Shown here: positions 1 through 15,285 of the stretch, one piece after another
Position numbering within the stretch: the first letter of the stretch is position 1
Layout: every line of letters starts with the position of its first letter
NCBI RefSeq assembly: GCF_002854065.1
Contig: NZ_CP024147.1
Length of the DNA: 64,000 nucleotides
Strand: one strand, 5' to 3'
From: Escherichia coli
Lineage (GTDB): Bacteria > Pseudomonadota > Gammaproteobacteria > Enterobacterales > Enterobacteriaceae
Position numbers and translations under genes: made by a program
Notes under the pieces: model-generated
What the model saw: only the letters and a program-made list of their open reading frames with translations
What the model was told of the DNA's origin: nothing
The model's database searches: none

Positions 1-126
1 AAGCAAAACTTCAGACACCTGACATATAAAAAATAATCTCGGTGTGAGATGCTTTACGTCTTCCAAGCCCCCTTCCTTGCCGTAAATGGAAAGATACATC
101 TAATTATAGAATTTATATGTTTTACC

Positions 127-702
127 CTACGGCAGTGCTGGCCATTCAATATCCTGTGCAGTTGACGTATCAACACGGTTCAGCAACACCCGATACTTTT
201 TCCAGGCTTCCAGCAATGAGGTTTCTTCCTCCGTTGCGATTTCCAGATCTACAGCATCCTGAAGTGGCGCAATATGCTCACTGGCTACCTGCATCAGGCT
301 GTTTTTTGTTTCTTCCGCCTCCCGGATCCGGAACAGTTTTTCTGCTTCTGCATCTTTCACCCAGGCTGTGCCGTTCCACTTCTGAAACTCCCCTTCCGGC
401 GATAACCAGGTAACATTTTCCGGTAACGGACCGAGTTCAGAAATAAATAACGCGTCCCCTGACGCTACGTCATAAACCGTTTTACCCCGATGGTCTTCAA
501 CGAGATGCCACGATGCCTCATCACTGTTGAAAACAGCCACAAAGCCAGCAGGAATATCTGGCGGTGCAATATCGGTACTGTTTGCTGGCAGACCTGTATG
601 AGGCGGAATATATGCATCACCTTCACCAATAAATTCATTAGTTCCGGCCAGCAGATTATAAATTTTTATGGTCCGTGGTTGTTCACTCATTCTGAATGCC
701 AT
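127..702 (-). CDS. phage tail fibre assembly protein (Tfa family)
   Basis: 191-aa ORF; recognised as lambdoid Tfa; sits immediately 3' of the tail-fibre fragment. Confidence 0.8.
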
Positions 703-1271
703 TATGCAAGCCTCACAATATAGTTAAATGCGATGTTTTTGACGGTGTTTTCCGCGTTACCAGCAGCGTTAACGGTGATGGTGTGTCCATGTGAACCAAT
801 CGCAACGGAGTGCGTATGAGCACCAATACCGACAGTATGTGCGTGTGCACCTGCGCTTGCAGCAGTGCCGGACAGTGAGTGGGTACTGGTATAATCCCAT
901 TGAATATTTACACCAGTCGCATAATTTCCGATTGCAACGTAAATATCGTAAGTATCACCAGATGTATTGACCCAGGCAAAATTTGTAAACCCTGCCGATG
1001 TGCGCTGCCATAAAGCACCAGTAATCCCCTTCGGATTACCATTACCTGCACGCAAAACAAGTTCAGATATACCTGCCTGTTGAGGTGAACCGACGTTATA
1101 TCCAGCCCCACCAATCAACGTAATTGAAACAACAGAACTCGCCTGCGGCATGGTTACCGTTGCTAATTTGAACCAACCAGCACCACCGCTGAATGACATT
1201 GTTGTTGAGTTAAGCGTACCAATATCTTTCGGTGTCAGTGTTATATCCGCTGAAAGCGCCTTACCATTCAC
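702..1271 (-). pseudogene. side tail fibre, C-terminal fragment only
   Basis: 189-aa open frame ending in the His-rich HxH tail-fibre tip motif; frame opens on GTG with no N-terminal body; lies directly after gene L. Confidence 0.6.
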
Positions 1272-1406
1272 CTTACGGGCAGAAGGTATTCACGCAGGGA
1301 AAATATCTTTCCCCCTCCGGTGTTCTCACCACGAAGCCGCACGACTCCGCTGGCGCACATCGCCGGGCGTGCGCCAGAATCGCTGATTCTGTCTCTGTCA
1401 TGGGAT

Positions 1407-2105
1407 TCACTGCGAAAGTTTGTTAATGGAAAGGAAGCCGCCAAAGTTGCCGACGTTATTGCGAAACTTACAGCCGCTCAGGCATTTGCTGCATTTATCC
1501 TTCGTGATATCGGACGTCGGCTGATCATATTCATCCGCGACCGCCGGACCGTGATAACCGCACTCATCACCGCGATAGGTCCAGGTGCAGGTGTTGGCCA
1601 GCATGATACGTCCCGGAAAAACGGCACCGTCCGTTTCCGTCGGCGTGGACAGTACAAAAGAGGCACTGACCGCGCTCAGTTCGCTGCACTGCTCGATGCG
1701 CCAGCGGCTGATCACCTCCTGCTCCGGATCGGCGTCACTGTTTCCGTTGACGAAGTTCACCGCATCCAGAAAACGGGCGTAAACCTTACGCCGGACCACC
1801 GTTCCTCCGACCAGACTCTGCAGGTCTTCCGCCATCCCGGTGACCATGCCGTGCAGGTTAGAAACCGTCAGTGTCGGACGGGCAGCACTGCCTTTGCCGT
1901 TCAGTTCAAATCCCGTCCCCTGAATGGGATACGCCTGATACTGTCGCCCCTGCCAGGTGACCGGCTCACCTTTATCGTTCTGCTCATTACAGAAAAAGTA
2001 GCGTTCCCCGCCTACCTCGGTCAGGTCGATTTCCCAGAGCACCACCTGGGCTGACTGAGTGAGGCGTGTCGTCTCATGATGTGTTTCCTGTGGAATATCC
2101 TGCAT
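1407..2105 (-). CDS. minor tail protein L (lambda gpL-like)
   Basis: 232-aa ORF closely matching lambda L as recalled (MQDI...CSKCLSGCKFRNN...INKLSQ). Confidence 0.85.
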   Translation of the reverse strand: MQDIPQETHHETTRLTQSAQVVLWEIDLTEVGGERYFFCNEQNDKGEPVTWQGRQYQAYPIQGTGFELNGKGSAARPTLTVSNLHGMVTGMAEDLQSLVGGTVVRRKVYARFLDAVNFVNGNSDADPEQEVISRWRIEQCSELSAVSASFVLSTPTETDGAVFPGRIMLANTCTWTYRGDECGYHGPAVADEYDQPTSDITKDKCSKCLSGCKFRNNVGNFGGFLSINKLSQ

Positions 2106-2114
2106 CAGAGACTC

Positions 2115-2444
2115 CTATGCCACGACCTGTTCAAAATCTGCCGTTATGGTTACCCACAACGCCCCCACGCTTGCCGACCATTTACGACAAACCACCCTGA
2201 TCGGCTTCCAGTCATAAGGTGGCGTCCACTGAAATGCGCGGACGCCACCGTGCCGTTCCAGAAAGGCTTTTAAAGATGGGTGTTCACATTTACGAACACG
2301 TATAGTCACGCTGTAAATCGACAACTGGTTATTCAGTCCCGCCGCACGACGCTGTTCATAACCATCGCCCAGCTTCACTGTCACCACTTTCGGCTCTGAT
2401 ACCACATTCATATCCGGGCGCACTTTCCAGTGAAACGTCTCCAT
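2115..2444 (-). CDS. minor tail protein M (lambda gpM-like)
   Basis: 109-aa ORF, lambda M-like, immediately upstream of L. Confidence 0.8.
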   Translation of the reverse strand: METFHWKVRPDMNVVSEPKVVTVKLGDGYEQRRAAGLNNQLSIYSVTIRVRKCEHPSLKAFLERHGGVRAFQWTPPYDWKPIRVVCRKWSASVGALWVTITADFEQVVA

Positions 2445-4648
2445 TACCGATATGCTCCACTTAACCGACCACCATCACGGGCCTGCTGTTGCATAAAGTC
2501 CGCTGCCGCTTTTTTCCCAAGGTCATAAACCACCTTCAGGGCAGCCGGACCTATCTGCCCGTTCGTGCCATCGTTATTGATCTCGATGTTGTACTGCGGG
2601 GCAAACATCGCCATACCTGAACCACCAATATCCGCCACAACCCCCAGCTTACCGTCAGCACCACGACGCAGTGGCAGAATGGCTTCAGGTCCAGCTTCCC
2701 CCATCACACCCGCGCCTTTTGCAAAAGCAAAAAACGTCGGACGGTTAACCACCGTGCCACTGTAACGACTCAAATCAGCAGACTGATAAATCCCCCCATT
2801 GGCATTCAGGGAAAGGCTGCTGAGATCAAATCCCAGTACACTGCCAATCCCTTTTATCGATTTCATCATGGTTGCCTGCGCCAGGATTTTCGCCATATCT
2901 GACAGCACCGAAGAGGTGAAGGATTTGAAGTTGAGTTTGCCGGTAGTGACAAAAGTTGCCAGGCCATTTCCCATGTTGCTGAAGGCTGATGAGAACACCT
3001 GTTCTGCTGTTCCTGCCGTATTGTCTGCATCCACGGTAAAATCCTGAAATGCACGCAGGACTCCGTTTTTCCAGTTACCCTGCACAACTTCAAGCTGTTG
3101 CCAGTAACGGCGATTCTCATTCAGTTGTCGGTTCAGGCTCTCCGTCAGCGCCTGCTCGGCCTTTCTGTAGTCATCCGTGTTATATGTCCCTTTCTGCTCA
3201 CTATCCCGCCTCAACTGCTCCAGCTGTTGCTGGTATTTCTGGCGAAGACTCAGTTGTACCTGATATCGCTGCCGCTGCTGATCACCCATACCCACCGTGG
3301 CGATATCCAGGTCATGTTGCTGACGCTGAGCGCGCTCTTCTTCAGCCAGTTGACTGGTCAGCTGAATTGTTTTTTTCTTCAGATCGTTGAGTGCCGTCTG
3401 TTTCTGAAGCTCCTGCTGTTTTACATCCAGCAGCGTCAGTGCCTGAATCAGTTCATCTTTACGGGCCAGCACACTCTTTTCATCTGCCGTCAGTTTTTTC
3501 CCGTCCAGATCGCTGATGCGCTGCTGCAGAGCCAGAAGCTGTTTATGCGCTTCTGTCATCTTTTCAGTGGCAATGCCTGCTGACTGTCTTGCAGCAGCAA
3601 TCTGTCCTTCCACCTGTGCCTGTTGCTGACTGTACTGCAGCAATAACCGGGTGGCCTCATCATTACGGGGTTCGCGTGTTTTTTTCTTACCGGATGCCAG
3701 GGCTTTCTCGTAACGTTCATTTTCACGTTGTATCGCCGCATCCCTGACAGCCTGATCGGCGTACTGCATGGCATTAATACGCGCAATTTCACGCTGATGT
3801 CGTGCTGCTTCCGTTTCATTCATCCGGTTCAGTGCAGCATTTTCAGCATTACGGCGTTTCTGTTGCTCCTGATAATTCCGCTCTGCCTGCTCTTTTGCAT
3901 CCTGCAAATCCTTCTGGCGTTTTTTCTCCTGAAGCTCGTTAAGACGCTGCTGATCGTACTCAACCTGAGAAGATGATGCCGTCCAGGGGAGTCTTTTCAC
4001 CCGCGACACTTTCTCCTGTAAAGCGGAAATCTGTTCATCCAGCGAGTCTTCACGACCAATATTCATGGCCGCATCCCAGAAACGACTCCATAAATCAGAC
4101 AGATACTTCAGCGTACTGCCCAGCGCATTGAGGTTATTATCAATATCCGCAGTACGCCGACCGGTTTCCTCTGCCAGTGCAGACATGGCTATCCGTGCCG
4201 CATCACTGGACCGCCCCTGTTCCCCAAGGACGCGTATCTGTTCAAGCTGAGTGGCAGTAAGAAAATGCAGCTCATTGTCCAGAGCCTTCGCGGCATTTAC
4301 AGGATCATCCTTCAGCCGCTTAAACTGATTTATGGTATCGCTGACCGACTGGCCAACCGATCGCTCCATCTGTGCGGCAGCTCTCGCCACCATACGGGAT
4401 GGATCATGAACAGAGTCTGCTGCCTCATGCTTCACACTAAACAGGGCTGGCCCGACATGGTGCAGGGCGTAAACGGGGTTCCCCCTGACAGTCGCAGCCA
4501 CAGGAGTGTTGGCCGCGAGGAGCCGTTTTTTTACTGTGTCCCGGTGAAGCCCAAAGGCCTCAGCGATTTTAAAAACACTCCAGTAATAAGCATCACCGAT
4601 CCCGCTCACATTTGACATAAGCAACTCCATCTGGCAGGTGAAAATCAT
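2444..4648 (-). CDS. tail tape-measure protein (lambda H-like C-terminal two thirds) with a divergent, possibly Nu1/small-terminase-derived N-terminus
   Basis: 734-aa ORF; C-terminus ...INNDGTNGQIGPAALK...RDGG resembles lambda H; N-terminal ~170 aa has an HTH-like segment; ATG at 4648. Confidence 0.65.
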   Translation of the reverse strand: MIFTCQMELLMSNVSGIGDAYYWSVFKIAEAFGLHRDTVKKRLLAANTPVAATVRGNPVYALHHVGPALFSVKHEAADSVHDPSRMVARAAAQMERSVGQSVSDTINQFKRLKDDPVNAAKALDNELHFLTATQLEQIRVLGEQGRSSDAARIAMSALAEETGRRTADIDNNLNALGSTLKYLSDLWSRFWDAAMNIGREDSLDEQISALQEKVSRVKRLPWTASSSQVEYDQQRLNELQEKKRQKDLQDAKEQAERNYQEQQKRRNAENAALNRMNETEAARHQREIARINAMQYADQAVRDAAIQRENERYEKALASGKKKTREPRNDEATRLLLQYSQQQAQVEGQIAAARQSAGIATEKMTEAHKQLLALQQRISDLDGKKLTADEKSVLARKDELIQALTLLDVKQQELQKQTALNDLKKKTIQLTSQLAEEERAQRQQHDLDIATVGMGDQQRQRYQVQLSLRQKYQQQLEQLRRDSEQKGTYNTDDYRKAEQALTESLNRQLNENRRYWQQLEVVQGNWKNGVLRAFQDFTVDADNTAGTAEQVFSSAFSNMGNGLATFVTTGKLNFKSFTSSVLSDMAKILAQATMMKSIKGIGSVLGFDLSSLSLNANGGIYQSADLSRYSGTVVNRPTFFAFAKGAGVMGEAGPEAILPLRRGADGKLGVVADIGGSGMAMFAPQYNIEINNDGTNGQIGPAALKVVYDLGKKAAADFMQQQARDGGRLSGAYR

Positions 4649-12516: not shown

Positions 12517-12852
12517 GTTTTTCAACCTGAAGTGTCAGCGAGAGTAAAAAATTATGGTGACCATTTTACCGTTGACTCAATAAGGCAGATGTGGGACGCA
12601 GCGATAAAACGTGCCGGACTCCGCCATTGAAAATCATATCAGTCGAGACATACTTATGCCTGCTGGTCGCTGACAGCTGGTGCTAACCCGGCATTTATAG
12701 CAAACCAGATGGGCCATGCAGATGCGCAAATGGTATTTCAGGTATACGGAAAATGGATGTCTGAAAACAATAATGCACAGGTAGCTTTGTTAAATACACA
12801 GTTAAGCGAGTTTGCCCCAACCATGCCCCATAACGAAGCAATGAAAAATTAA
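12517..12852 (+). pseudogene. phage tyrosine integrase, 3' remnant
   Basis: Open frame 12631-12852 encodes ...RHTYACWSLTAGANPAFIANQMGHADAQMVFQVYGKWM...; in-frame TGA at 12628; begins at the IS right end. Confidence 0.55.
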
Positions 12853-13039
12853 TTTAATATTTATCAAATAGTTGACACGTATGACTCTTGAAATCCATAA
12901 ATTCAAGCGCAGTGCCCAGCCATCCCGATACTGCTGCTTTCACCAAATCCTTAGTGCTTCTTTCGTGTTTTTCTATTGTCATAATGGTTATCTCTAAAAA
13001 AGAGGTAAGATGCGTACTACTTACTCGCCGTTATTGGTA

Positions 13040-14059
13040 TTATTCAGAAAAAGTGAGTAAGACTTTGCAGCAATGTTTTTGATCCTGTTCAAATAAACTA
13101 ATGGCATCAGCAACATGCTGGAAATCAAACGTATGGGTAATTAATTTTTCTGGTTTAATTAACCCTTTACTTAACCAGTCGATAACGACCGGAAATTTAT
13201 TTGCATTTAAGCGTGAAGAGAAAATAGATAGTTCTTTTCCGGTAATTCCTTGCTGAATCACTTCAGAAGGTTCACTGGAGAAGCCCATCAATACAATACG
13301 TGCCGCTGGAGAAGCCAGCGTTACGGCCTCTTTCAGGATAGAAGGATGACAAGCCGCATCAATAATTAATGTCGGCTTTATGCCTTTTTCAGCGAAAATC
13401 TCGCCAAGCGGTGTCTGGCTGTTATTAATCACCCAGTCAGCCCCGCTCTCTTTCGCTTTTTCCAGTCGTTCATCAATGCGATCGGCAACAATCACATTTT
13501 TAACGTTATAGACGCCTTTTAATACCTGAACGATCGTCAGGCCGATTGGACCGGCACCGTAAACCAGAACGGTATCATTTTCAGTCGGTTGACCATGACC
13601 GGTTACGTTAGCCGCAATGGTAAAAGGTTCGATCATCACCGCATATTGATCGGCCACTGCTTCAGGAATTTTCCACGCATTTTTTGCCGGAACCACAGCA
13701 TATTCACTGAAACCACCGTCAGCGTGCACACCTAATACAGCGAGTGTCGTACAAACGTTCGGCTTACCTATAGAGCACGGATAGCAATGACCACAGCTGA
13801 CCACCGGATCGACAGCAACACGTTCACCGACTCTGGCGCTTTCCACACCTTCACCCACCACATCAATGACGCCAAAGAATTCATGTCCAATGACGCGCGG
13901 ATATTTCGCAAAAGGATTATGCCCACGATAAATATGGCTATCTGAACCACAAATTCCGGCAAGTTTCACTTTTACTCGTACTTCACCCGCTGACGGGGTG
14001 GGTATTTCACGTTCGACAATCGCCAGTTGATTCGGTTTTTCAATTAATATGCTTTTCAT
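13040..14059 (-). CDS. rspB: starvation-sensing protein RspB (Zn-dependent dehydrogenase)
   Basis: 339-aa ORF from MKSILIEK with AAGGAG Shine-Dalgarno; ORF-track start is extended. Confidence 0.9.
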   Translation of the reverse strand: MKSILIEKPNQLAIVEREIPTPSAGEVRVKVKLAGICGSDSHIYRGHNPFAKYPRVIGHEFFGVIDVVGEGVESARVGERVAVDPVVSCGHCYPCSIGKPNVCTTLAVLGVHADGGFSEYAVVPAKNAWKIPEAVADQYAVMIEPFTIAANVTGHGQPTENDTVLVYGAGPIGLTIVQVLKGVYNVKNVIVADRIDERLEKAKESGADWVINNSQTPLGEIFAEKGIKPTLIIDAACHPSILKEAVTLASPAARIVLMGFSSEPSEVIQQGITGKELSIFSSRLNANKFPVVIDWLSKGLIKPEKLITHTFDFQHVADAISLFEQDQKHCCKVLLTFSE

Positions 14060-14070
14060 TATCTTACTCC

Positions 14071-15285
14071 TTACCAGTTCCACAGCGTGCCATCTTCCAG
14101 ACGTGCGACTGGTAGATAAGCAGGTTCATAGGGATATTTCGCCGCCAGCTTTTCATCGAATTCGATGCCAAGACCCGGTTTGTCTCCCGGATGCATATAG
14201 CCGTTATCGAAAGTCCAGTTGTGCGGGAAGACTTCGAGCATTTGTTCGGAATAACCCATGTATTCCTGGACACCGAAATTGGGGACCCACAGATCAAAGT
14301 GCAGCGCTGCAGCCATGCAGACTGGTGACAAATCGGAAGGACCGTGTGAGCCAGTACGTACCTGATACAGCGAAGCAAAATCGGCAATCCGGCGCATACC
14401 GGTAATTCCGCCTGCATGGGTCAGCGTGGTGCGGATATAATCGATGAGTTGCTCTTCAATCAGTTGTTTGCAGTCCCAGATGCTGTTGAAGACTTCACCC
14501 ACTGCGATGGGTGTGACGGTATGTTGGCGAATGAGACGGAAGCATTCCTGGTTTTCCGCAGGCGTCGGGTCTTCCATCCAGAACATGCGATAATCTTCAA
14601 TGCTTTTACCAAAGCGCGCCGCTTCAATAGGCGTTAAGCGATGGTGCATGTCATGCAGCAAATGTTCATTAAAACCAAACTTGTTACGTACCGCGTCAAA
14701 CAATTTCGGCATGAAATCGAGGTATTTCTCCGTCGACCACAGCTGCTCTTCCGGCCACTGTCCTTTGGTTGCGGGTTCATAAGCCAGACCTTTACCTTTC
14801 GACATGCCGTAGGTGGTTTTCATACCAGGGATTCCGCACTGCACGCGGATGGCTTTGAATCCCAGCTCCTGATGACGGGCATAATCATCCAGAGCTTCAT
14901 CAATACTGTGACCGGTGGTATGGCAATAAACCATCACCCCTTCACGAGACGCGCCGCCGAGTAACTGGTAAAGCGGCATGTTGGCAGCTTTGGCTTTAAT
15001 ATCCCACAGCGCCATATCAACCGCTGAAATAGCCGACATCGTAACCGGACCGCGACGCCAGTAAGCACCTTTATAGAAAAACTGCCAGATATCTTCGATA
15101 CGGTGCGCATCGCGACCAATAAGCTGCGGACAAAGGTGATCCTGCAAATAAGAGGCCACGGAAAGCTCACGTCCATTGAGGGTGGCATCCCCAAGGCCCG
15201 TAATACCGTCCTCAGTGGTGATTTTTAATGTGACGAAATTACGCCCCGGACAGGTAACAAAAACTTCAGCCTTTACGATCTTCAT
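14071..15285 (-). CDS. rspA: starvation-sensing protein RspA (enolase-superfamily dehydratase)
   Basis: 404-aa ORF from MKIVKAEV. Confidence 0.9.

What the first reader, a model, noticed from the sequence alone, without database searches (positions are those of the whole stretch)
702..2105. Tail module jumps from gene L directly to a tail-fibre 3' fragment
In lambdoid order L is followed by K, I, J, lom and stf. Here the L stop (1407) is followed after 136 bp by only the last 189 codons of a tail fibre (frame opens on GTG) and then tfa. K, I, J and the fibre body are missing, so this is a second internal deletion and the prophage cannot form tails.
Basis: partly seen in the sequence, partly recalled or inferred. 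Interest (0 to 1): 0.3.

Follow-up and report, generated by a model that had tools for sequence, protein, structure and literature searches.

The report
Decayed Qin prophage tail remnant
This is an ordinary deletion scar in the dead Qin prophage of an E. coli strain, but its right-hand breakpoint is a single TA dinucleotide in the tail-fibre gene that has been reused, to the base, in at least eleven different prophage truncations, and no known enzyme accounts for that.

Summary
The window is the Qin cryptic prophage of E. coli strain 100416, with its genes on the minus strand.

- **The "136-bp gap".** The stretch after L is not empty. It holds codons 1-38 of K (1401-1288). These are fused out of frame, at a shared TA (1288-1287), to an internal point of the side tail fibre gene stf.
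- **What is missing.** The rest of K, I, J, lom and about 1.76 kb of stf are absent from the window and from 20 kb beyond its start.
- **The 189-codon frame.** It is not "the last 189 codons". It is two joined pieces: a second, in-frame 576-nt deletion at another TA (885-884) removed the Collar and fibre-repeat domains.
- **A third junction.** At GTA (4395-4393) a terminase small-subunit stub is fused to the last two-thirds of tape-measure gene H.
- **Rarity.** Junctions A (K'|'stf) and B (internal stf) occur contiguously in no other of 5,426 complete genomes. Junction C was not counted.
- **Invertase sites.** No Pin crossover sites are present.

So this is prophage decay, and the element cannot build tails.

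One thing is unexpected. The stf breakpoint (GGGTA|CCTTCTGCCCG) is joined, always at this exact TA, to eleven different upstream partners in other strains. The K breakpoint recurs with three different stf positions. The mechanism is unknown.

The parts
1..29 (+). Last 29 nt of pinQ (serine DNA invertase), ending in TAA at 27-29. The gene runs off the window start and is convergent with tfaQ.
   Evidence: PGAP annotation of the identical record NZ_CM128593.1; sequence read.
127..702 (-). tfaQ, an intact tail fibre assembly chaperone gene (191 aa).
   Evidence: Pfam Caudo_TAP E 3e-44; annotated tfaQ.
702..1288 (-). stf remnant: two non-contiguous pieces of a side tail fibre gene. The open frame from GTG 1271 gives 189 aa.
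   Evidence: Window 1288-884 matches SE11 stf nt ~1763-2167 and window 885-1 matches the stf 3' end plus tfa. PHROG hits: aa 1-135 match internal fibre positions and aa 130-189 match the fibre C-terminus. No Pfam domain remains.
884..885 (-). Junction B: the shared TA of an in-frame 576-nt (192-codon) deletion inside stf.
   Evidence: Parents in NDM1 stf..ACCAGTA|ATGCC.. and ..GCACATA|CCCAC... The contiguous form is found only in strain 100416 among 5,426 genomes.
1287..1288 (-). Junction A: the shared TA where K nt 114 meets stf (site 'stf1', GGGTA|CCTTCTGCCCG in intact stf). The K and stf frames differ.
   Evidence: Alignments to intact K (mEp460) and intact stf (SE11, NDM1) overlap by exactly these 2 nt. 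Only one genome has this junction contiguous.
1273..1401 (-). K' stub ORF: ATG 1401, 38 K codons, 4 out-of-frame codons (TFCP), stop TAA 1275-1273. The stop lies 1 nt before the GTG of the 189-aa frame.
   Evidence: PGAP pseudogene 'missing C-terminus'.
1407..2105 (-). L, an intact minor tail protein gene.
   Evidence: Pfam Phage_tail_L E 5e-99; 99.6% identical to mEp460 L.
2115..2444 (-). M, an intact minor tail protein gene.
   Evidence: Pfam Phage_min_tail E 5e-39.
2444..4395 (-). 'H: the C-terminal ~650 residues of the tape measure protein (from residue ~373 of 1021).
   Evidence: blastn to mEp460 H starts at window 4395; tblastn; Pfam Tape_meas_lam_C, TMP_4 and TMP_2.
4393..4395 (-). Junction C: the shared GTA where a terminase small-subunit 5' stub meets H.
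   Evidence: Window ..CATCCCGTA|TGGTGG.. against the H parent ..ATATCGGTA|TGGTGG...
4396..4648 (-). Terminase small-subunit N-terminal stub (~84 aa), fused in frame to 'H. Together they give the 734-aa ORF listed.
   Evidence: phrog_141 'terminase small subunit' E 3e-17; weak DUF1441 hit.

Best explanation
The locus is the late-gene remnant of the Qin cryptic lambdoid prophage, integrated at ydfJ, in E. coli strain 100416. Three RecA-independent (illegitimate) deletions shaped it, each joined at a 2-3-nt overlap containing TA.

- **Junction C:** terminase small subunit' | 'H.
- **Junction A:** K codon 38 | stf nt ~1763. It removes about 7 kb: the K 3' part, I, J, lom and the stf 5' part.
- **Junction B:** an in-frame 576-nt loss inside the stf remnant.

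Shown: the junction coordinates, the parental sequences on both sides, the absence of the missing genes, and the rarity of junctions A and B.

Inferred:
- Junction A probably arose in two steps. The sister Qin in strain FCI56 carries the same K stub joined in frame 143 nt further upstream in stf. The window then lost exactly the 143 nt between that TA and the stf1 TA.
- Site choice is not random. stf1 behaves as a fixed DNA end or crossover point that pairs through its terminal TA with TA dinucleotides upstream. My most likely mechanism is a recurrent break or stalled 3' end at stf1, followed by 2-nt microhomology joining or template switching. The K site lies at the foot of a stable hairpin, which fits stalling there.

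Consequence: the prophage cannot make tails. The 189-aa frame could be translated only by reinitiation after the K' mini-ORF, and it lacks the receptor-binding Collar and repeat region.
For: - **Identity and context.** 100% match to NZ_CM128593.1, with ydfJ', ynfT, ydfK, pinQ, tfaQ, cspI, rrrQ, essD and cspB around it.
- **Junction mapping.**
- **Missing genes.**
- **Rarity.**
- **FCI56 relationship.** It shares upstream context through window 6149-4542 and has the same K stub.
- **Hot spot, partners.** The right flank of stf1 is joined at the same TA to eleven partners:
  - K
  - terminase small subunit
  - gpA
  - H
  - J, at two positions
  - a P2-type H gene at nt 7
  - a ParB_N gene, at two positions
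  - a bor-proximal site
  - an int/xis-proximal site
- **Hot spot, precision.** In a search anchored downstream of the site, every aberrant context among 73 contigs diverges exactly at that TA. A second anchor further downstream found no other breakpoint between stf1 and itself.
- **Contrast with ordinary deletions.** Those in the same kind of loci use 3-8 nt of non-TA microhomology.
- **K site structure.** ssDNA fold z = -3.5, with 0 of 200 shuffles as stable.
Against: - The enzyme or lesion that defines stf1 is unidentified.
- The stf1 region has no unusual predicted structure (z about 0.3), so the stalling idea is unsupported for the hotter of the two sites.
- Similarity of the flanks beyond TA does not explain partner choice.
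- The two-step history rests on parsimony, not on a dated phylogeny.
- Junctions A and B are each seen in one assembly only, so they have no independent confirmation.
Confidence: 0.8

Rival explanations
1. The deletion was made by the adjacent serine invertase PinQ (or PinR/PinE in trans), recombining a quasi crossover site in K with one in stf.
For: - pinQ lies next to tfaQ.
- Every junction has at least a 2-bp identity, as a 2-bp-stagger serine recombinase would require.
- The 9 nt right of stf1 (CCTTCTGCC) resemble the outer edge of the e14 pix repeat (CCTTCTCCC) in 8 of 9 positions.
Against: - PinQ, PinR and PinE act on e14 pix sites (TTGGTTTGGGAGAAGG; PMC12529663). In e14 these read TTCTCCCAAACC AA GGTTT.., so the core is AA, not TA.
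- No site in window 1-2500, in intact K-I, or in SE11, Turner or 100416 stf-tfa-pin modules comes closer than 10 of 24 mismatches, the level shuffled sequence gives.
- In pix geometry the cut would fall about 14 nt to the right of the observed TA.
- Invertases make inversions, whereas all events here are deletions.
- stf1 junctions are not associated with an adjacent pin gene.
Confidence: 0.05
2. The stf 3' part plus tfa is a mobile cassette with a defined left end at stf1. It inserts at TA targets in a transposition-like way, so the window shows an insertion into K rather than a deletion.
For: - One invariant end is joined to eleven different contexts, always at TA.
- The left flank of stf1 was never found joined to anything else.
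- PHROG families exist in which this domain starts about 50 aa from the N-terminus of shorter proteins.
Against: - No K 3' remainder, I or J lies downstream or anywhere in 84 kb.
- Every left partner whose position could be placed lies upstream of stf in normal prophage gene order. Every partner with a readable ORF has the same orientation as stf. This is what cis deletions give.
- In most contigs (58 of 73) the sequence is simply continuous coding stf.
- No transposase, terminal inverted repeat or duplicated TA at a right end was seen.
Confidence: 0.08
3. The 189-aa frame is a functional, selected gene, for example a receptor-masking anti-phage Stf fragment like StfE2. It would be expressed by termination-reinitiation after the K' mini-ORF, so the junction was kept by selection rather than being neutral decay.
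For: - The K' stop TAA lies 1 nt before the GTG, within TAAGGTG.
- Both stf deletions leave the frame open.
- tfaQ and pinQ are intact.
- Stf chimeras from cryptic prophages can block T2 adsorption (PMC12529663).
Against: - The fragment lacks the Collar and fibre-repeat region and has no Pfam domain.
- Upstream ORFs enter stf1 in all three frames with no bias (1, 5 and 3 cases).
- Selection on the product cannot explain single-nucleotide precision of the endpoint.
- There are no expression data.
Confidence: 0.12
4. Junctions A and B are assembly artefacts of the single chromosome-level assembly that contains them.
For: Both are contiguous in only one of 5,426 genomes. The stf 3' region is a multi-copy repeat in E. 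coli genomes (median 5 places per genome).
Against: - Junction-spanning sequence must exist in reads to be assembled.
- The same class of junction, with the same stf1 end and the same K end, occurs in many independent complete genomes and IMG/VR (public viral-contig collection) contigs.
- The reading frames and flanks are clean.
Confidence: 0.03

Closest known systems
Qin cryptic prophage of E. coli K-12 (ydfJ'-ynfT-ydfK-pinQ-tfaQ-stfQ'-nohA...)
   Same: Same chromosomal site and the same right-end module (ynfT, ydfK, pinQ, tfaQ). Same lysis and cold-shock genes: essD, ydfR, rrrQ, rzpQ, cspI, cspB, cspF. The window's last 885 nt are 97% identical to K-12 stfQ-tfaQ. The K-12 nohA|stfQ junction is also at a TA.
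   Different: K-12 joins the terminase small subunit (nohA) directly to a different stf position and keeps no H, M, L or K. Strain 100416 keeps 'H-M-L-K' and has three different junctions.
Intact lambdoid tail modules (phage mEp460, cdtI, lambda: H-M-L-K-I-J-lom-stf-tfa)
   Same: H (3' part), M, L and K codons 1-38 are 95-100% identical at protein level and collinear.
   Different: K residues 39-247 (JAB and NlpC/P60 domains), I, J, lom and the Stf N-terminal, repeat and Collar domains are absent.
Int-promoted deletions of phage lambda, with one endpoint fixed at the att crossover point and the other at secondary sites (from my own knowledge of the classical literature; not retrieved here)
   Same: The pattern is the same: one endpoint invariant to the nucleotide, many different partner sites, and short core identity at the joint.
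   Different: Here the fixed point lies inside stf, not at att. The shared core is 2-3 nt (TA), not a 7-bp overlap. No recombinase or recognition arms could be identified.
Hin/Gin/Cin/Pin invertible tail-fibre segments (e14 P segment)
   Same: An invertase gene sits next to stf-tfa. stf1 lies where a constant/variable fibre boundary would be. Eight of 9 nt resemble the outer edge of pix.
   Different: There are no 26-bp crossover sites, no inverted alternative Sv/tfa copy, the junction core is TA rather than AA, and the events are deletions, not inversions (PMC12529663).
Microhomology-mediated illegitimate deletions in decaying prophages
   Same: Collinear loss of internal DNA with short overlap at the joint. 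Ordinary examples occur in the same loci: TCCGG, CTGTGGAA, CAGC, AGGTAT, AAA.
   Different: The window's junctions use only 2-3 nt, always containing TA. One of them uses an endpoint recurrent to the base in eleven contexts, which random microhomology does not predict.

Membership tests
Qin cryptic prophage | Integrated at ydfJ, with ynfT-ydfK-pinQ-tfaQ at one end and the cspI/rrrQ/essD/cspB/cspF block inside | tested here: met
   PGAP annotation of the 100%-identical record. The gene order matches K-12 Qin.
Lambda gpK tail tip assembly protein | About 247 aa with Prok-JAB and NlpC/P60 domains | tested here: not met
   Only residues 1-38 are present. The domains of intact K span residues 4-105 and 111-224.
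Lambda-type side tail fibre Stf | phage_tail_N domain, Phage_fiber_2 repeats, Collar domain and a C-terminal His-rich end in one ~980-aa protein | tested here: not met
   The intact NDM1 Stf has all four. The 189-aa frame has none at Pfam thresholds. It retains only an internal block plus the last 60 aa.
Tail fibre assembly protein Tfa (Caudo_TAP) | Full-length ORF with the Caudo_TAP domain directly after stf | tested here: met
   191 aa, E 3e-44, profile positions 1-130 of 131.
Pin/Gin-type invertible segment | Two inverted 26-bp crossover sites (12-bp half-sites, as in TTCTCCCAAACC, around a 2-bp core) | tested here: not met
   e14 controls are found at 3-4 mismatches. The best site in the window or in related modules has 10 of 24 mismatches, which is chance level.
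Pin/Gin-type invertible segment | Alternative fibre tip and tfa copy in inverted orientation between the sites | tested here: not met
   Only one tfa lies between stf and pinQ. In SE11 and Turner the second tfa fragment is in direct orientation and lies beyond pin.
Pin/Gin-type invertible segment | Adjacent serine invertase gene | tested here: met
   pinQ, 196 aa, annotated recombinase.
Serine-recombinase crossover (general) | Identical 2-bp core at both parental sites, with the product switching parent exactly at the core | tested here: met
   TA is shared at junctions A and B and at all stf1 and K-site junctions.
Serine-recombinase crossover (general) | Recognisable, dyad-symmetric binding arms shared by the recombining sites | tested here: not met
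   No common or symmetric flanks among the parental sites listed. Flank similarity ranks are unremarkable.
Serine-recombinase crossover (general) | Dependence on a specific recombinase | not testable with these tools
   Needs genetics or biochemistry.
Ordinary microhomology-mediated deletion | Endpoints scattered, with overlap of variable sequence and length | tested here: inconclusive
   The overlap is present, but it is always TA-containing and the stf1 endpoint is invariant. Controls in the same loci behave ordinarily.

The most novel reading that the evidence does not exclude
The TA at stf1 (GGGTA|CCTTCTGCCCGTAAGG), and to a lesser degree the TA in K (GCGTGAATA|TCTCC), would be primary sites of an uncharacterised site-specific break or 2-bp-core strand-exchange activity in E. 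coli. This activity would repeatedly truncate lambdoid and P2-like prophages by joining the fibre-tip/tfa module to any upstream TA. Prophage domestication at this locus would then be partly enzyme-directed rather than random decay.
Probability: 0.3. Interest if true: 0.7.

Novelty: new member of a known kind. Interest (0 to 1): 0.4.

Why it matters
As a deletion scar in Qin, the finding only refines the annotation: a K' stub, a twice-cut stf, and three junctions. It confirms that the element cannot make tails.

The wider interest is the breakpoint itself. A single TA inside the side tail fibre gene is the right-hand end of at least eleven different truncations. They occur in Qin-, Rac- and DLP12-site prophages and in P2-like prophages. 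They always preserve the fibre-tip/tfa module, which recent work links to anti-phage receptor masking (PMC12529663).

If a dedicated activity makes these joints, it would be a new route by which bacteria trim prophages into defence modules. It would also be a concrete, sequence-defined substrate for studying RecA-independent recombination in E. coli.

Tried and rejected
- **Pin crossover sites.** I scanned the window, intact K-I, and the SE11, Turner and 100416 stf-tfa-pin regions with the e14 pix half-site. Nothing exceeded chance.
- **Extended homology as the driver of partner choice.** Local alignment of flanks for all 696 TA sites of the mEp460 late region put the K site at rank 544 and the J site at rank 692 for the left flank.
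- **Hairpin-induced stalling at stf1.** No unusual fold was predicted (z 0.3 and 0.1). Only the K site is structured.
- **Frame selection at stf1.** Upstream ORFs enter in all three frames.
- **Association with an adjacent pin gene.** None.
- **Metagenome scan for aberrant stf1 contexts.** Zero hits; a relaxed pattern gave 17 contigs, all intact.
- **Reciprocal product** (stf1 left flank joined elsewhere). Zero in IMG/VR.
- **BLAST mapping of truncation points along stf.** The 132-nt tandem repeats confounded it.
- **Automated junction scan of about 180 loci.** It found only five sharp junctions because the reference set was small. Four had ordinary 4-8-nt microhomology.
- **Literature.** The Rpn nuclease paper gives no TA specificity. 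No paper describing this hot spot was found.
- **Considered from my own knowledge and rejected on sequence grounds, without tests.**
  - IS630 (needs CTAG) and IS5 (needs YTAR) targets.
  - IS608-type TTAC targets.
  - Type II or Type III restriction cuts.
  - Chi/RecBCD ends.
  - Gyrase 4-bp stagger.
  - Lambda Int core sites.
- **EC596 capsid|L and Z217-2 terminase|K junctions.** They could not be resolved cleanly for lack of parental sequences.
Full report
**What the region is**

The first 2.5 kb of the window is 100% identical to the chromosome of E. coli strain 100416 (NZ_CM128593.1, human stool, Gambia), read on the opposite strand. The record's annotation places it in the Qin cryptic prophage. 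On one side lie ydfJ' (truncated), ynfT, ydfK, pinQ and tfaQ. Further in lie cspI, rzpQ, rrrQ, ydfR, essD, cspB and cspF. This matches K-12 Qin.

All tail genes are on the window's minus strand. Reading in the gene direction they are:
- a terminase small-subunit stub (4648-4396; phrog_141, E 3e-17);
- the last two-thirds of tape measure gene H (4395-2444);
- M (2444-2115);
- L (2105-1407);
- a K stub (1401-1288);
- an stf remnant (1288-702);
- tfaQ (702-127);
- the convergent 3' end of pinQ (1-29, plus strand).

These assignments rest.

**Checking the observation**

The "136 bp" between L and that frame is not spacer. It begins with the K start codon (ATG 1401) and encodes K residues 1-38, identical to phage mEp460 K. 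PGAP annotates it as a C-terminally truncated pseudogene.

Alignments to intact K (mEp460) end at window 1287. Alignments to intact stf (SE11, NDM1 and many others) begin at 1288. The two parents therefore overlap by exactly the dinucleotide TA.
- K parent: ..CCCTGCGTGAATA|TCTCCGG..
- stf parent: ..AATGGTCGGGTA|CCTTCTGCCCG..
- Product: ..GTGAATA|CCTTCTGCCCG..

The K frame continues for four codons (TFCP) to TAA at 1275-1273. That stop lies one base before the GTG at 1271. The fusion is out of frame.

**A second deletion inside the fibre fragment**

Window 1288-884 and window 885-1 match stf segments that are 576-612 nt apart in every other genome that has both.

Against the closest parental allele (strain NDM1), the window lacks 576 nt, or 192 codons. 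The loss is in frame and again lies between two TAs..ACCAGTA|ATGCC.. and ..GCACATA|CCCAC...

The lost piece contains the Collar domain and the Phage_fiber repeats. The resulting 189-aa frame has no Pfam domain. Its residues 1-135 hit internal positions of tail-fibre PHROGs, and residues 130-189 hit fibre C-termini. The GTG is the Val codon of ..RKVNGK.. in intact Stf. So this is not "the last 189 codons", and it is not a complete short-fibre gene.

**A third junction**

The 734-aa ORF at 4648-2444 is a fusion. About 84 aa of a terminase small subunit are joined at GTA (4395-4393) to H residue ~373.

**What is missing**

tblastn with the mEp460 V, U, Z, G, H, M, L, K, I, J, Lom and Stf proteins was run against the whole 64-kb window and against 20 kb beyond its start. 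It finds only H (C-terminal part), M, L and K residues 1-38.

Relative to an intact module, junction A removes about 7 kb. That is about 5.4 kb from the K site to the stf start in mEp460, plus about 1.76 kb of stf.

Junctions A and B are contiguous in no other of 5,426 complete E. coli genomes.

**The invertase idea**

The e14 P segment gave the positive control. Its two pix sites are CTCTCGAAAACC TT GGTTTGGGAGAA and TTCTCCCAAACC AA CGTTTATGAAAA. They lie 1797 nt apart, which matches the published PinQ/PinR/PinE substrate (PMC12529663).

The same scan was applied to window 1-2500, to intact K-I, and to the stf-tfa-pin regions of 100416, SE11 and phage Turner. It finds nothing better than 10 of 24 mismatches, which is what shuffled sequence gives.

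There is no inverted alternative tfa or fibre tip. The junction core is TA rather than AA. The events are deletions, not inversions. I conclude that Pin did not make this junction.

**Probable history of junction A**

The Qin of strain FCI56 (Colombia) shares the upstream context with the window (window 6149-4542) and has the same 114-nt K stub. It joins that stub in frame to a TA 143 nt further upstream in stf..GTGAATA|ACGGGAAATAC...

The simplest reading is a common ancestor with K'|stf2. The 100416 lineage then lost exactly the 143 nt between that junction TA and the stf1 TA, and also lost the 576 nt of junction B.

FCI56's own additional deletions (within H, and from H into L) have ordinary 3-6-nt non-TA overlaps.

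**The unexpected part: reuse of the same breakpoints**

*K breakpoint.* The same K endpoint is also joined in frame to a third stf position, in a different stf allele..GTGAATA|AGGGACGC.. This occurs in prophages at the DLP12 site of strains EC596, ECL27977 and ECL27829, and in an IMG/VR (public viral-contig collection) contig.

*stf1 breakpoint.* This is the more striking case. The right flank of stf1 is joined, always at the same TA, to eleven different left partners:

| Left partner | Where seen |
|---|---|
| K | this window |
| Terminase small subunit | strain B-1109 |
| Terminase large subunit gpA | NCTC9100; two IMG/VR contigs |
| Tape measure H at ..KDDPV | L066 |
| J at nt ~466 | strain Z217-2 |
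| J C-terminal receptor-binding domain | L044 |
| P2-type H gene at nt 7 | strain AR_0128; L073 |
| ParB_N gene at codon 9 | L037 |
| ParB_N gene at codon ~98 | L040 |
| Site just past bor | L038 |
| Site in the int/xis-proximal early region | L047 |

*Precision.* I ran a search anchored 10-33 nt downstream of stf1, so that the dinucleotide at the break was not pre-specified. It returned 73 contigs.
- 58 had the intact upstream sequence, and a few had allelic variants.
- Every aberrant context diverged exactly at that TA.
- A second anchor further downstream found no extra contigs, so no breakpoints lie between stf1 and that anchor.
- The left flank of stf1 joined to anything else was not found.

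*Nature of the events.* Every partner whose position could be placed lies upstream of stf in normal prophage order. Every partner with a readable ORF has the same orientation as stf. They are therefore cis deletions.

*Other TA-containing overlaps.* The K-12 Qin nohA|stfQ junction and the K-12 DLP12 aaaD|tfaD junction also have them, TA and TAT respectively.

*Contrast.* Other sharp deletions in the same kinds of loci use T, AAA, TCA.., TCCGG, CTGTGGAA, CAGC or AGGTAT. TA is therefore not a universal feature of prophage deletions.

**What could explain the hot spot**

- Extended homology does not explain it.
- Reading-frame selection does not explain it.
- Pin adjacency does not explain it.
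- The K site sits between two hairpins, one base before a 6-bp GC stem. The ssDNA fold has z = -3.5, and none of 200 shuffles is as stable. This fits a stalled nascent 3' end that re-pairs through its terminal TA.
- Another junction 6 nt further into that stem exists, which favours a structural hot region rather than a strict site.
- stf1 shows no such structure.

My working model is a recurrent, position-fixed DNA end or 2-bp-core exchange at stf1 that pairs with upstream TAs. The agent is unidentified.

The formal analogy is to Int-promoted lambda deletions, which have one end fixed at att. That comparison comes from my own knowledge and was not retrieved here.

A transposition-like insertion of a fibre-tip cassette is less likely. 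No target remainder is found downstream, and all partners that could be placed are collinear.

**Verdict**

The finding is a real, privately derived deletion variant of a well-known cryptic prophage.

It is wrong in four details:
- a K stub is present between L and the fibre fragment;
- the fibre fragment is itself internally deleted;
- there are three junctions, not two;
- there are no invertase sites.

In itself this is ordinary. The score is raised because the breakpoint is one of the most precisely recurrent deletion endpoints I could document, and it has no identified mechanism.

Noticed in passing
window 1287-1288 (site stf1); loci L008, L013, L017, L018, L036-L040, L044, L047, L066, L073: The same TA in stf (GGGTA|CCTTCTGCCCGTAAGG) is the right-hand end of truncations joined to eleven different upstream partners. 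These occur in Qin-, Rac- and DLP12-site prophages and in P2-like prophages. No breakpoints fall at neighbouring positions and no reciprocal product was found.
   Followed up: partly
window 1288-1401; L003 5632-5746; L004 5657-5771; L041 ~3870: The K breakpoint (GCGTGAATA|TCTCC) recurs joined to three different stf positions. Two of these are in-frame K(1-38)-Stf fusions. The site lies one base before a GC-rich hairpin, and the 70-nt region folds far better than shuffles (z -3.5).
   Followed up: partly
window 4393-4648: A terminase small-subunit N-terminal stub is fused in frame at GTA to tape measure residue ~373. This gives a 734-aa chimeric ORF (2444-4648, minus strand).
   Followed up: yes
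window 884-885: An in-frame 576-nt deletion inside the stf remnant, between two TAs, removes the Collar and fibre-repeat domains. It is unique to this strain.
   Followed up: yes
L009 (K-12 Qin, nohA/stfQ junction) and L093 (K-12 DLP12, aaaD/tfaD junction): The classical K-12 cryptic prophage junctions also have TA-containing overlaps (GTGAATATA|ACCGCG, and TAT). The annotated GTG start of K-12 stfQ is made of nohA-derived bases.
   Followed up: partly
window ~12700-14208 (L001 8293-9801): A group II intron reverse transcriptase/maturase (ltrA) sits between IS3-family transposase fragments near the other end of Qin, next to a truncated antiterminator gene.
   Followed up: no
L002 5614-6009 (SE11 stf), immediately left of stf1: Three tandem 132-nt repeats encode Phage_fiber_2 units and end within a few bases of stf1. 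Copy number varies between alleles. This confounded BLAST mapping of truncation points.
   Followed up: partly
L002 10378-10590; L011 7363-7494; L093 4876-5061: A second, direct-orientation tfa fragment (tfaX-like) lies about 2.5 kb beyond pin, after a SAM-methyltransferase gene, in SE11, phage Turner and K-12 DLP12. No inverted copy exists, so these pin genes have no local invertible segment.
   Followed up: partly
window 1-126: tfaQ and pinQ are convergent, with a 97-nt spacer. This orientation is opposite to e14, where the pinE 5' end abuts the invertible segment.
   Followed up: no
L133 (IMG/VR contig), K 5' region: Another K truncation lies 6 nt downstream of the K site (..ATATCTCCG|TAAGCGTCAACGG..), inside the hairpin stem. 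Its partner was not identified.
   Followed up: no
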